Shown here piece by piece: positions 36,226-44,429 of a DNA stretch of 64,000 nt. Every line of letters starts with the position of its first letter. Position 1 is the stretch's first letter. Made by a program: the position numbers and the translations under genes. The stretch is from the NCBI GenBank assembly GCA_964016885.1, contig OZ024741.1:84134001-84198000 (forward strand). Reading direction: 5' to 3'. Under the pieces are notes generated by a model. That model had not been told where the DNA came from. It saw nothing but the letters and a program-made list of their open reading frames with translations, and did no database searches. The DNA comes from Eledone cirrhosa. Lineage: Eukaryota.

Positions 36226-37542
36226 CTCTACTAAAGTATTGTGCACCTCACTTACTGAGGCTAAGCCCGATTGAACCCGGTACTCACACACACGCGCACA
36301 CACACACGCACACACACACACACATACACATACACACACACATACATACACACACACACACGCGCATATATATATGTATATATATATATTTGAAAATGGA
36401 AGTAAGTTTCTATATAAAACAGTTATTATACAGAAAATGTGACATTAGAAATAGCACGGAAAATATATTTAACGGTCTGTTTTTCTTTTTTTTTTTCCTT
36501 TCTTTGATTCGTGAAAATGACATTATTAAAAGATGAGAAGGAGAATTTTTTTTAAAAGAATGTTGTAATGGGTATAAAGTATATAAAGTATAACCGGTTT
36601 TGATGTATTAGTAAAATTCATCTTATCAAATGTGGAGTATTACAATTAAAAATAATTAAGAATTAAGATCTAAAAATTAGAGATTTAAAATTAAGTGTTG
36701 AGGTAAGTTATTTTCATCTTCCTTGTTAAGAAGGAGACTGGAAAAGTTGTGTGTACAGAGAGAGGTGTGTAGTCATGATAGTAGCGGCAGCAGTGTTGGT
36801 AGGTGTGTTTTTTCACATAGAACAAAATTGTTTTTAGGGACAAAGGAAATATTCTGTTCTTGTTGGTTTCATAAAGCTGCTTTTCACTATGTATTAAGCG
36901 TCCTTATAAGACACGCTACATTTTCTTTAATTATATATATATATAAATGGAATAGAATGAAACGAAATTTCATGTCTCACTCTTAGTACGGCACTGACTC
37001 AAATGTAAGTATGTATGTATACGTACATACATATATGTATACAGACGTACAGCAGCATGTATATATATATATATGGACGTATCAGTTTACCGAACATTTA
37101 TTATAATGTTCGCTTTGTTTGTTTGAAAACAAACGGACAGCCTGATTTACGCCGTACAGTGTTCAGGCAACCACGTCACCTTTTTGTTCAACACTGACAC
37201 AGGAACGATGTACTAGTTTCAAGCTTGTTGGCTATCGTCAGCACCGTATACCTTTCTGCCAGATGGTTGAACGTTCGAAAGTATATACTTTCCATATGAA
37301 AATTAACGGCTGAGCAGCCTAATTTGCATGTCGAGTGAGTTCAGTCGGCCAGGCGCACCGAAAACGATAAATGGAATAGAATGAAACGAAATTTCATTTC
37401 TCACTCTTATACAGCATTTACTCAAATGTAAGTATGTATGTATACGTACATACATATATGTATACAGACGTACAGTAGCATGTATATATATATATATATA
37501 TATATATATATATATATATATATATATATATATATATATATA

Positions 37543-40500
37543 TGAATATAGACATAGAATATTCGAAAATATTCTGTATGTTTATAATAAACATTTTGAA
37601 GACCTAATCGCTATAGAATAGAATACGTCACGTATTACAATTAGATTCTCGATAAAAGCAAGGGAAGTAATCTACGCGTTTCATTCTTATTAGAAATCTT
37701 CAGGACTACATATCCAGTGCTTTTATCGAGAATGACACAGCTAGAGACTTATAGAATACTTAGCTGTGTACAGAAACTGGTTTGAAAGAGCGGTTGCCGG
37801 TCCGGCAGAAATTAGAAATTGGAATAAATGCTCTGAAATAGCGATATATATGTGAATATAGACATAGAATATTCGAAAATATTCTGTATGTTTATAATAA
37901 ACATTTTGAAGACCTAATCGCTATAGAATAGTACACAGCTAAGTATTCTATAAGTCTCTAGCTGTGTCATTCTCGATAAAAGCACTGGATATGTAGTCCT
38001 GAAGATTTCTAATAAGAATGAAACGCGTAGATTACTTCCCTTGCTTTTATCGAGAATCTAATTGTAATACGTGACGTATTCTATTCTATAGCGATTAGGT
38101 CTTCAAAATGTTTATTATAAACATACAGAATATTTTCGAATATTCTATGTCTATATTCACATATATATCGCTATTTCAGAGCATTTATTCCAATTTCTAA
38201 TTTCTGCCGGACCGGCAACCGCTCTTTCAAACCAGTTTCTGTACACAGCTAAGTATTCTATAAGTCTCTAGCTGTGTCATTCTCGATAAAAGCACTGGAT
38301 ATGTAGTCCTGAAGATTTCTAATAAGAATGAAACGCGTAGATTACTTCCCTTGCTTTTATCGAGAATCTAATTGTAATACGTGACGTATTCTATTCTATA
38401 GCGATTAGGTCTTCAAAATGTTTATTATAAACATACAGAATATTTTCGAATATTCTATGTCTATATTCACATATATATCGCTATTTCAGAGCATTTATTC
38501 CAATTTCTAATTTCTGCCGGACCGGCAACCGCTCTTTCAAACCAGTTTCTGTACACAGCTAAGTATTCTATAAGTCTCTAGCTGTGTCATTCTCGATAAA
38601 AGCACTGGATATGTAGTCCTGAAGATTTCTAATAAGAATGAAACGCGTAGATTACTTCCCTTGCTTTTATCGAGAATCTAATTGTAATACGTGACGTATT
38701 CTATTCTATAGCGATTAGGTCTTCAAAATGTTTATTATAAACATACAGAATATTTTCGAATATTCTATGTCTATATTCACATATATATCGCTATTTCAGA
38801 GCATTTATTCCAATTTCTAATTTCTGCCGGACCGGCAACCGCTCTTTCAAACCAGTTTCTGTACACAGCTAAGTATTCTATAAGTCTCTCTAGCTGTGTC
38901 ATTCTCGATAAAAGCACTGGATATGTAGTCCTGAAGATTTCTAATAAGAATGAAACGCGTAGATTACTTCCCTTGCTTTTATCGAGAATCTAATTGTAAT
39001 ACGTGACGTATTCTATTCTATAGCGATTAGGTCTTCAAAATGTTTATTATAAACATACAGAATATTTTCGAATATTCTATGTCTATATTCACATATATAT
39101 CGCTATTTCAGAGCATTTATTCCAATTTCTAATTTCTGCCGGACCGGCAACCGCTCTTTCAAACCAGTTTCTGTACACAGCTAAGTATTCTATAAGTCTC
39201 TAGCTGTGTCATTCTCGATAAAAGCACTGGATATGTAGTCCTGAAGATTTCTAATAAGAATGAAACGCGTAGATTACTTCCCTTGCTTTTATCGAGAATC
39301 TAATTGTAATACGTGACGTATTCTATTCTATAGCGATTAGGTCTTCAAAATGTTTATTATAAACATACAGAATATTTTCGAATATTCTATGTCTATATTC
39401 ACATATATATCGCTATTTCAGAGCATTTATTCCAATTTCTAACTTCTGCCGGACCGGCAACCGCTCTTTCAAACCAGTTTCTGTACACAGCTAAGTATTC
39501 TATAAGTCTCTAGCTGTGTCATTCTCGATAAAAGCACTGGATATGTAGTCCTGAAGATTTCTAATAAGAATGAAACGCGTAGATTACTTCCCTTGCTTTT
39601 ATCGAGAATCTAATTGTAATACGTGACGTATTCTATTCTATAGCGATTAGGTCTTCAAAATGTTTATTATAAACATACAGAATATTTTCGAATATTCTAT
39701 GTCTATATTCACATATATATCGCTATTTCAGAGCATTTATTCCAATTTCTAATTTCTGCCGGACCGGCAACCGCTCTTTCAAACCAGTTTCTTACACAGC
39801 TAAGTATTCTATAAGTCTCTAGCTGTGTCATTCTCGATAAAAGCACTGGATATGTAGTCCTGAAGATTTCTAATAAGAATGAAACGCGTAGATTACTTCC
39901 CTTGCTTTTATCGAGAATCTAATTGTAATACGTGACGTATTCTATTCTATAGCGATTAGGTCTTCAAAATGTTTATTATAAACATACAGAATATTTTCGA
40001 ATATTCTATGTCTATATTCACATATATATCGCTATTTCAGAGCATTTATTCCAATTTCTAATTTCTGCCGGACCGGCAACCGCTCTTTCAAACCAGTTTC
40101 TGTACACAGCTAAGTATTCTATAAGTCTCTAGCTGTGTCATTCTCGATAAAAGCACTGGATATGTAGTCCTGAAGATTTCTAATAAGAATGAAACGCGTA
40201 GATTACTTCCCTTGCTTTTATCGAGAATCTAATTGTAATACGTGACGTATTCTATTCTATAGCGATTAGGTCTTCAAAATGTTTATTATAAACATACAGA
40301 ATATTTTCGAATATTCTATGTCTATATTCACATATATATCGCTATTTCAGAGCATTTATTCCAATTTCTAATTTCTGCCGGACCGGCAACCGCTCTTTCA
40401 AACCAGTTTCTGTACACAGCTAAGTATTCTATAAGTCTCTAGCTGTGTCATTCTCGATAAAAGCACTGGATATGTAGTCCTGAAGATTTCTAATAAGAAT

Positions 40501-42627: not shown

Positions 42628-42668
42628 CGGTGCTGACGATAGCTAACAAGCTTGAAACTAGTACATCG
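42628..42668 (+). ncRNA. Type I hammerhead (family B representative)
   Basis: cggtg CTGACGA t agct aaca agct t GAAACTAGTA catcg; palindromic stem III ACTAGT. Confidence 0.92.
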
Positions 42669-44429
42669 TTCCTGTGTCAGTGTTGAACAAAAAGGTGACG
42701 TGGTTGCCTAAACACTGTACGGCGTAAATCAGGCTGTCCGTTTGTTTACAAACGAACAAAGCGAACATTATAATAAATGTTCGGTAAACTGATACGTGCA
42801 TATATATATGTGTGCCTGTATGTATATATTTATATATATATATATATATATATATATATATATATATATATATATATATACATGCTACTATACGTCTGTA
42901 TACATATATGTATGTACGTATACATACATACTTACATTTGAGTAAGTGCCGTACTAAGAGTGAGAAATGAAATTTCGTTTCATTCTATTCCATTTATCGT
43001 TTTCGGTGAGCCTGGCCGACTGAACTCAGTCGATATGCAAATTAGGCTGCTCAGCCGTTAATTTTCATAAGGAAAGTATATACTTTCGAACGTTCAACCA
43101 TCTGGCAGAAAGGTATACGGTGCTGACGATAGCTAACAAGCTTGAAACTAGTACATCGTTCCTGTGTCAGTGTTGAACAAAAAGGTGACGTGGTTGCCTG
43201 AACACTGTACGGCGTAAATCAGGTTGTCCGTTTGTTTACAAACGTACAAAACGAACATTATAATAAATGTTCGGTAAACTGATACGTGCATATATATATG
43301 TGTGCCTGTATGTATATATATATATATATATATATATATATATATATATATATATATATATATATATATACGTATATATATATATATATATATATATATA
43401 TATATACATGCTACTGTACGTGTGTATACATATATGTATGTACGTATACATACATACTTACATTTGAGTAAGTGCCGTACTAAGAGTGAGAAATGAAATC
43501 TCGTTTCATTCTATTCCATTTATCGTTTTCGGTGCGCCTGGCCGACTGAACTCACTCGATATGCAAATTAGGCTGCTCAGCCGTTAATTTTCATAAGGAA
43601 AGTATATACTTTCGAACGTTCAACCATCTGGCAGAAAGGTATACGGTGCTGACGATAGCTAACAAGTTTGAAACTAGTACATCGTTCCTGTGTCAGTGTT
43701 GAACAAAAAGGTCGCGTGGTTGCCTGAACACTCTACGGCGTAAATCAGGCTGTCCGTTTGTTTACAAACGAACAAAGCCAACATTATAATAAATGTACGG
43801 TAAACTGATACGTGCATATATATATATGTGTGCCTGTATGTATATATATATATATATATATATATATATATATATATATACATGCTACTGTAGGTCTGTA
43901 CATATATATGTATGTACGTATACATACATACTTACATTTGAGTAAGTGCCGTCCTAAGAGTGAGAAATGAAATTTCGTTTCATTCTATTCCATTTATCGT
44001 TTTCGGTGCGCCTGGCCGACTGAACTCACTCGATATGCAAATTAGGCTGCTCAGCCGTTAATATTCATAAGGAAGTATATACTTTCGAACGTTCAACCAT
44101 CTGGCAGAAAGGTATACGGTGCTGACGATAGCTAACAAACTTGAAACTAGTACATCGTTCCTGTGTCAGTGTTGAACAAAAAGGTGACGTGGTTGCCTGA
44201 ACACTGCACGGCGTAAATCAGGATGTCCGTTTGTTTACTGACGAACAAAGCGAACATTATAATAAATGTTCGGTAAACTGATACGTGCATATATATATAT
44301 GTGTGCCTGTATGTATATATATATATATATATATACATATATATATATATACATGCTACTATACGTCTGTATACATATATGTATGTACGTATACATACAT
44401 ACTTACATATATATATATATATATATACA

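What the first reader, a model, noticed from the sequence alone, without database searches (positions are those of the whole stretch)
36945..44408. Retrozyme family B: large hammerhead repeat with a built-in variable (TA)n
Seen: 7 hammerheads in non-coding units of about 425-540 bp. Length variation comes from an internal (TA)n, and units have additional hairpins (cgaacattataataaatgttcg; ggctgctcagcc). Known: metazoan non-LTR retrozymes are roughly 170-400-nt type I hammerhead repeats that give circRNAs. Inference: an unusually large family, possibly undescribed, predicted to give circles of heterogeneous size that carry their own target sequence.
Basis: partly seen in the sequence, partly recalled or inferred. 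Interest (0 to 1): 0.78.

Follow-up and report, generated by a model that had tools for sequence, protein, structure and literature searches.

The report
Hammerhead retrozyme carrying its TA target
A non-coding repeat of about 430 bases plus a variable TA run carries a hammerhead motif predicted to cut its own RNA and sits in TA microsatellites; it is most likely an ordinary animal retrozyme copied by a Penelope-type retrotransposon, and neither cutting nor RNA circles have been shown.

Summary
There are seven type I hammerheads. Units are a 431-433-nt non-coding core plus a (TA)n of 34-118 nt, which explains the length differences among complete units. The locus is one insertion with two arms joined head to head at 42118/42119, both ending in (TA)n, as Penelope-like elements (PLEs) do. 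A second hammerhead family (A, 310 nt) has inserted into B's own (TA)n, so that tract is a real target. B copies end 309 nt after the predicted cut: twice in the window and in 3 contigs of a public run. This fits PLE-type internal priming. The family is abundant and diverse in DNA runs of one organism. The novelty claims weaken. The size is ordinary (published families 51-972 bp; pDo500 about 500 bp). Internal TA tracts also occur in the tandem units of two coding PLEs in this window. The weak helices II and III predict mostly dimer-dependent cleavage. Cleavage, expression and circles are untested. The likeliest helper is a Hydra-clade PLE, with an intact ORF in the window. Verdict: new member of a known kind.

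The parts
36943..42118 (-). Left arm of the B insertion (sense on -): starts at unit position B289 (42118), runs through three hammerheads, ends at B309 (36943) joined to (TA)n; interrupted by family A. B1 = first base after the cut.
42119..44408 (+). Right arm of the B insertion (sense on +): starts at B6, four hammerheads, ends at B250 joined to (TA)n; joined head to head to the left arm with no overlap at 42118/42119
42627..42669 (+). B hammerhead, type I: 6-bp helix I, CUGACGA core, U.U mismatch plus 3-bp helix II with 6-nt loop, GAAA, palindromic 4-nt helix III loop, cut after 42663
43117..43159 (+). B hammerhead, cut after 43153
43643..43685 (+). B hammerhead, cut after 43679; one helix II pair is G.U
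44116..44158 (+). B hammerhead, cut after 44152; one of three helix II pairs broken
41936..41978 (-). B hammerhead, cut after 41942
41471..41513 (-). B hammerhead, cut after 41477
37205..37247 (-). B hammerhead, cut after 37211; one loop 2 change
42273..42390 (.). Longest intact internal (TA)n of B (118 nt). Others: 42823-42880 (58), 43313-43406 (94), 43841-43880 (40), 44314-44351 (38), 41749-41782 (34), and a 15-nt tract with a deletion at 37060-37074. Predicted to form the tip of a long hairpin.
37483..41317 (.). B's internal (TA)n split (37483-37543 and 41301-41317) by an insertion of family A: 310-nt hammerhead units, 11 hammerheads on + and one inverted arm joined head to head at 37931
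18183..18349 (-). Older 5'-truncated B copy (88.5-91% identical outside the TA tract), from B's internal (TA)n to the same 3' end B309, in a TA-rich site; no hammerhead
248..2605 (+). Not part of B; candidate helper: open 785-codon frame of a Hydra-clade PLE (RWK, DKT, CxCX5C, CxxC, CxH, GIY-YIG-like motif), repeated at 3844-6201

Best explanation
B is a non-coding tandem repeat with a type I hammerhead and an internal (TA)n, and is most likely a non-autonomous retroelement (non-LTR retrozyme) copied into TA microsatellites by a Penelope-like element. Steps. (1) Arrays are transcribed as multimers (inferred). (2) The hammerhead has a 1-2-bp helix III with a palindromic loop and a U.U mismatch under a 3-bp helix II (shown). 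It is predicted to cut weakly alone and better as a dimer, giving some 465-550-nt monomers that a host ligase could circularise (inferred from axolotl and mussel retrozymes; about 55%). (3) A TA-targeting PLE protein nicks (TA)n and starts reverse transcription inside the RNA at B309, not at the cut site (the fixed DNA end is shown, the priming inferred). The likeliest helper is a Hydra-clade PLE (about 45%; Neptune-type about 30%). (4) Both target strands prime on one multimeric template, leaving two arms joined head to head (structure shown; twin priming inferred, about 60%). (5) The internal (TA)n is most likely a former target site captured into the unit. It changes length by ordinary slippage at a hairpin tip and remains a landing site for other TA-targeting elements (landing of family A shown; capture inferred).
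For: Hammerhead: 7 copies, all with the core intact, versus 0.06 per shuffle. Across families A and B, 87 of 88 cells pair and 6 of 11 pairs change on both sides; slid controls pair 24-48%. In public DNA runs the 3 listed variants inside the 43-nt motif are G.U to A-U in helix I, N7 and loop 2 (40 of 70 sites shown). The architecture matches the canonical metazoan type I motif (PMC4209133) and axolotl Amex1/Amex2 (PMC7229834). Mobile family: 6,892 contigs of run X1 and 67,259 of 12,467,656 RAD records of X23 lie on a 406-nt piece, spread over 85-100% identity. Fixed 3' end: B309 at 36943 and 18183 and in 3 contigs of X14, which run into (AT)n at exactly that place. PLE reverse transcription starts inside the RNA and uses uncut RNA (PMC11167929). 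Inverted 5'-joined copies and (TA)n targeting are PLE features (PMC8557442). Helper: Hydra ORF with the diagnostic motifs in two tandem copies; 14 of 25 Hydra-family hammerheads in File S2 share the U.U mismatch (counted by eye). Capture: Hydra and Neptune-type tandem units in the window also hold TA tracts.
Against: No RNA evidence of any kind. Folded alone, the five B hammerheads tested are no more stable than shuffles (z +0.99 to +1.65) and their minimum-energy structures are not the active fold. In circular folds helix I has pairing probabilities of only 0.14-0.70. 8 of 9 Xenopus retrozyme dimers did not cleave in vitro. No sequence homology links B to any PLE in the window. The window's own 785-codon Hydra copy has no canonical hammerhead. 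The U.U mismatch also occurs in axolotl, so it is not diagnostic of Hydra. The covariation compares two families, so it is essentially one event. The twin-priming geometry is only suggestive (P about 0.08 for B, 0.24 for A). Target-site duplications cannot be read in (TA)n.
Confidence: 0.8

Rival explanations
1. B is the pseudo-LTR of a coding PLE whose ORF lies elsewhere in the genome; this locus is a run of 5'-truncated copies.
For: Fixed 3' end, inverted arm and TA targeting are all PLE traits. 21 of 57 Xenopus-scale matches in the preprint are to PLEs, at their pLTRs: 24 of 57 families matched 22 TEs, 21 of them PLEs. No genome is held to exclude it.
Against: About eight head-to-tail units follow each other with no ORF between them. 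No B sequence touches an ORF in the window. None of the 18 loose-end rows shown (510 not shown) points to a coding join. An origin from a pLTR stays likely and is compatible with the main reading.
Confidence: 0.12
2. B is now a passive satellite: once mobile, it is amplified at the DNA level, and the hammerhead no longer cuts.
For: Units are 93.9-98.4% identical. Two neighbouring units share four variants, which a star model does not give (P about 0.0002 for one pair sharing three or more); this fits unequal exchange. Helix II is weakened in 2 of 7 copies. The isolated fold is weak.
Against: The core is unchanged in 7 of 7 copies. Listed genome-wide variants in the motif are compatible with the fold. 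1,034 of 6,892 contigs are at least 99% like this copy. A dispersed older copy shares the 3' end.
Confidence: 0.06
3. Variant of step 4: the arrays come from rolling-circle reverse transcription of one circular monomer rather than of a linear multimer.
For: This is the published model (PMC7229834). Family A's 10 complete units differ at only 7 columns, all private. Apart from one pair of units, B's 3 other shared substitutions are near chance (expected about 1, P about 0.08).
Against: The right arm begins 5 nt after the predicted cut, as expected if copying ran to a cleaved 5' end (P 0.013 alone, 0.063 for any of four arm starts). Uncut RNA is the main substrate of the one PLE tested. The shared variants of two neighbouring units need a later duplication under this model.
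Confidence: 0.35

Closest known systems
Metazoan non-LTR retrozymes (Cervera and de la Pena 2020, PMC7229834; parts 2-4 of 6 read, supplement unreadable)
   Same: Non-coding tandem units, one type I hammerhead each, low GC, self-paired predicted circle (65-71% paired; z -6.0, and -3.0 without the purine-pyrimidine tract), PLEs in the same genome. Short palindromic helix III as in axolotl Amex1, U.U under helix II as in Amex2.
   Different: Slightly longer than the 150-450 bp given there; internal (TA)n; both weakening features in one motif; expression and circles not shown.
Vertebrate non-LTR retrozymes as non-autonomous PLE derivatives (Li, Clavereau and Pollet 2026, bioRxiv 10.64898/2026.07.22.740005; parts 1-3 of 5 read, supplements closed)
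   Same: Meets their definition (tandem repeat with a hammerhead in at least two consecutive units); size inside 51-972 bp; co-occurs with PLEs.
   Different: No pLTR homologue of B was found. Their MFE filter was not applied in their way. The parts read mention no internal microsatellite.
Hydra-clade Penelope-like elements (Craig et al. 2021, PMC8557442; section 11, passages, supplement parts read)
   Same: (TA)n targeting, fixed 3' end, inverted 5'-joined arm, U.U at the base of helix II in 14 of 25 families.
   Different: B has no ORF. Most listed Hydra hammerheads have a 3-4-bp helix III. Four B or A motifs and two peptides from the window were absent from the held part of the supplement (file cut when stored).
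pDo500 hammerhead satellite of Dolichopoda crickets (PMC2837043; passages read)
   Same: About 500-bp abundant tandem repeat with a hammerhead; single and double hammerhead cleavage proposed.
   Different: Cleavage is shown there. No microsatellite is mentioned in that text (0 occurrences).
Poseidon PLE of Anolis (Frangieh et al. 2024, PMC11167929; parts 1-2 of 4 read)
   Same: DNA ends lie at a fixed internal site downstream of the hammerhead, in AT-rich targets.
   Different: Autonomous and coding; B has no shown protein partner.

Membership tests
Type I hammerhead ribozyme | Conserved core (CUGANGA, GAAA, NUH) at a three-helix junction with open helix I | tested here: met
   7 of 7 copies; 87 of 88 cells pair across families A and B
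Type I hammerhead ribozyme | Match to an Rfam hammerhead model | tested here: not met
   Nothing at gathering score; none among 150 of 155 matches shown at E up to 10. This is a detection aid, not a defining feature; family A is missed too.
Type I hammerhead ribozyme | Self-cleavage at the predicted site | not testable with these tools
   Isolated folds are weak; the palindromic helix III gives a 6-bp dimer duplex of -4.8 kcal/mol
Non-LTR retrozyme | Tandem units of a few hundred bases, a type I hammerhead in at least two consecutive units | tested here: met
Non-LTR retrozyme | No protein-coding capacity | tested here: met
   Longest ATG ORF 51-83 codons, through the TA tract
Non-LTR retrozyme | No LTR, PBS or PPT layout | tested here: inconclusive
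   Head-to-tail units with no body between paired LTRs; PBS and PPT were not searched for
Non-LTR retrozyme | Multicopy and dispersed, co-occurring with PLEs | tested here: met
   Second locus at 18183; 6,892 contigs in X1; PLE ORFs in the window
Non-LTR retrozyme | Expressed as linear and circular monomer RNA | not testable with these tools
   No run on record as RNA could be laid
Non-LTR retrozyme | Target-site duplication longer than 4 bp when present | tested here: inconclusive
   Both flanks are (TA)n
pLTR of an autonomous PLE | Unit joined to an RT plus GIY-YIG ORF | tested here: inconclusive
   Not met in the window; no genome held
Hydra-clade PLE (for the ORF at 248-2605, not for B) | RWK, DKT, CxCX5C linker, CxxC and CxH, C-terminal GIY-YIG | tested here: met
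   Motifs at residues 49, 133, 643, 741, 769, 677 against PMC8557442 section 11; compared by eye with the printed alignment; no tree built
Hydra-clade PLE (for the ORF at 248-2605, not for B) | Canonical hammerhead near the 3' end | tested here: not met
   Only degenerate motifs at 3561 and 7115; so this copy is Hydra-like by protein and atypical by ribozyme

The most novel reading that the evidence does not exclude
B is a self-targeting retrozyme. Its internal (TA)n is kept because it works in the life cycle: it gives homology for joining the 5' end to a (TA)n target and makes every new copy a fresh landing pad. This locus records a twin-primed integration of a ribozyme-cut multimer by a Hydra-clade PLE. 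With an intact helper ORF at hand, B and A would be natural minimal substrates to show how PLEs make their inverted, tailed insertions and when the hammerhead acts.
Probability: 0.15. Interest if true: 0.6.

Novelty: new member of a known kind. Interest (0 to 1): 0.3.

Why it matters
As a family it adds one more animal retrozyme, possibly the first noted with a variable microsatellite inside. Its value is as a record of mechanism. It shows a fixed DNA 3' end far from the ribozyme cut, a head-to-head insertion with one arm starting 5 nt after the cut, a second retrozyme nested in its TA tract, and an intact TA-targeting PLE nearby. Which element mobilises animal retrozymes, and whether from circles or uncut multimers, is still open in the papers read. 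This pairing makes the question testable but does not answer it.

Tried and rejected
No whole genome is held. Rfam gave no hammerhead; its microRNA matches are TA-repeat artefacts. The repeat finder was swamped by microsatellites. No RNA holder listed among 24 runs; this is no evidence on expression. Run X14 is of unrecorded kind and was used only for where copies end. X4 (organism B) holds 0.34 of the words but 0 contigs were laid, so presence in a second species is open. The 16 small-share runs other than those laid were not used. Read-end piles in X23 at 42550-42553 and 42570 fall on AATT and are taken as restriction ends. The 26,319 loose ends at 42483 have low agreement and lie by another AATT in most copies, so they were not used. 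The depth drop after B309 may reflect variant density and was not used. Summed contig depth was not read as copy number. The B hammerhead pattern has 0 matches in metagenome and viral contigs. No B homology to other parts of the window by relaxed blastn or nhmmer. A and B share a 3'-terminal look-alike (0.2% of 48,050 window pairs score as high), but the older copies of both lose it (score 10 versus 20), so it is a lead only. Pfam names none of the PLE ORFs; 100 homologues of the 785-codon ORF were found at 30-45% identity, nearly all unnamed. Literature: 10 searches found no paper on this family, on a retrozyme with an internal microsatellite, or on twin priming in PLEs; results were seen as listings only. 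The library lacks most subscription papers; Dfam and Repbase were not searchable; the supplement of PMC7229834 could not be read and those of the preprint are closed, and either may list this family. The words octopus and cephalopod in those searches were my guess from the repeat landscape (recalled); no call names the host. Earlier scan notes held nothing on this sequence or genome.
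Full report
1. Observation. A descriptor scan of both strands found 23 type I hammerhead candidates in the window, against 0.06 per shuffle in 100 shuffles. Seven are family B, twelve are family A inside the same interval, two are older A copies, and two are single motifs at 15918 and 11806. B monomers from cut to cut are 465, 473, 490 and 526 nt. Taking out the (TA)n (34, 40, 58 and 94 nt) leaves 431-433 nt, so the tract explains the length differences of these four units. The units are 93.9-98.4% identical and non-coding. Rfam does not recognise the motif.

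2. The ribozyme. B has a 6-bp helix I preceded by a UAU bulge, the core CUGACGA, a U.U mismatch, a 3-bp helix II with a 6-nt loop, GAAA, and a helix III of one or two pairs with a palindromic loop. Family A has the same layout with different letters. Over 8 distinct sequences, 87 of 88 cells pair and 6 of 11 pairs change on both sides, while slid partners pair 24-48%. This is essentially one comparison between two families. In public DNA runs, 3 of the 40 variant sites shown (30 more not shown) fall in the 43-nt motif: a G.U to A-U change in helix I, N7, and a loop 2 base. The layout is the canonical metazoan type I motif that cleaves as a dimer (PMC4209133, passages), and it combines the two weak points of the axolotl motifs (PMC7229834). 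Against easy activity: the isolated motifs fold no better than shuffles and not into the active shape, helix I is only partly formed in circular folds, and 8 of 9 Xenopus dimers did not cleave. The whole monomer is predicted to be highly paired (z -6.0; -3.0 without the purine-pyrimidine tract; 0 of 60 shuffles as stable in each case).

3. The locus. The left arm (42118 to 36943, sense on -) runs from B289 to B309 over three hammerheads. The right arm (42119-44408, sense on +) runs from B6 to B250 over four. The two 5' ends are joined directly and both 3' ends enter (TA)n. Family A has the same shape inside B's own (TA)n: an inverted arm and a direct arm joined at 37931, both ending in TA. A is younger: 7 variant columns in 10 units, all private. 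Inverted 5'-joined copies and microsatellite targeting are described for PLEs (PMC8557442). In both insertions one arm ends shortly upstream, in unit coordinates, of where the other starts (38 nt of 465; 72 of 310). This is what twin priming on one template would leave (model recalled from L1; P 0.08 and 0.24). B's right arm starts 5 nt after the predicted cut (P 0.013 alone, 0.063 for any of four arm starts). These points are suggestive only.

4. A fixed 3' end away from the cut. B ends at B309 at 36943 and in an older, 5'-truncated copy at 18183. Three of the 75 contigs laid from run X14 leave the reference at 42507, which is B309, into (AT)n. The direct arm of A and two older A copies end at A166-172. 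A PLE protein tested in vitro starts reverse transcription inside its RNA, downstream of the hammerhead, and mainly uses uncut RNA (PMC11167929). B's ends fit this.

5. The internal (TA)n. It is a real target, since A landed in it, and the older copy's 5' end stops in it. Its flanks pair with each other better than purine-pyrimidine-preserving shuffles (-35.8 versus -25.6 kcal/mol, 12 of 2,000), so the tract is predicted to sit at a hairpin tip where length is free. It is not special to B. The 3,596-bp tandem unit of the Hydra-type PLE has a TA tract of different length in its two copies, and the Neptune-type tandem at 53.6-60.5 kb repeats an interrupted TA tract with each unit. The simplest reading is capture of a former target by read-through, followed by slippage. 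Whether the tract helps B spread is untested.

6. Abundance and helper. 6,892 contigs of X1 (1,034 at 99% or more, 2,199 at 95-99, 2,955 at 90-95, 704 below 90) and 67,259 of 12,467,656 RAD records of X23 lie on a 406-nt piece. The family is large and diverse in that organism; X1 may be the source of the window. The window holds an open 785-codon PLE frame twice, with the Hydra-clade motifs, a fragment of a second such element (33% identical) and a frameshifted Neptune-type element (clade name from recalled motifs). Hydra elements target (TA)n and 14 of 25 listed hammerheads share B's U.U mismatch. The second Hydra-like element's pLTR has a core-mutated motif with the same U.U plus 3-bp helix II (16281, 17143). 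No sequence links B to any of them, so the helper is an inference.

7. Circle or multimer. Two neighbouring left-arm units share four variants, which one round of copying from a single circle would not give; a later duplication could. The other three shared substitutions are near chance. Family A is compatible with rolling-circle copying. The data do not decide.

8. Comparison. B meets the sequence-level definition of a non-LTR retrozyme; cleavage and circles could not be tested. Its size is within published ranges (51-972 bp; pDo500 about 500 bp), though above the 150-450 bp of PMC7229834. The link between retrozymes and PLE pLTRs is already in print. Ten searches found no description of this family or of a retrozyme with an internal microsatellite, but Dfam, Repbase and two sets of supplements were out of reach.

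9. Verdict. Observation confirmed, interpretation partly supported. New member of a known kind; interest 0.3. The most novel open reading, a functional self-target with twin-primed integration by a Hydra PLE, has probability about 0.15.

Noticed in passing
window 37544-41302; also 7392-8081 and 63754-64000: Family A, a second 310-nt hammerhead retrozyme, near-identical units, nested in B's (TA)n; older subfamily copies elsewhere; 3' ends at A166-172 in TA.
   Followed up: partly
window 1-7267: Tandem Hydra-type PLE, period 3,596 bp, two copies of an open 785-codon frame. Each unit has an internal (TA)n and a 700-bp extension with a degenerate hammerhead at 3561 and 7115; ends in TA at 7267. 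Probably recently active.
   Followed up: partly
window 16130-17215: Fragment of a second Hydra-like PLE with inverted pLTR copies; both hammerhead-like motifs (16281 -, 17143 +) read CAGAAGA instead of CUGAAGA. A short piece like its 3' end also lies near 7270-7330.
   Followed up: partly
window 53625-60440: Tandem C-rich, frameshifted PLE (Neptune-type by recalled motifs), period about 3,330 bp, hammerhead-like cores at 56990 and 60325, TA tract repeated with each unit.
   Followed up: partly
window 11762-11812 (-): Single type I hammerhead candidate with a long helix II and a TA-palindromic helix III, unrelated to A or B by the searches run.
   Followed up: no
window 15912-15962 (+): Single hammerhead candidate whose core and helix II resemble family A, with a longer helix III.
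   Followed up: no
window 44817-52370 (-): L1/Tx1-like element directly right of the B locus: RVT_1, zf-RVT and endonuclease domains in separate frames, partial second copy near 51750-52370.
   Followed up: no
window 12400-12537 and 14850-14960; 62001-63660: Other repeats ending in TA with inverted or tandem layout (a pair of inverted ends around 12537 and 14850; a tandem near 61630-63660), probably further TA-targeting elements.
   Followed up: no
window 22703-23300: 192-bp tandem of a SINE-like repeat; no tRNA gene called.
   Followed up: no
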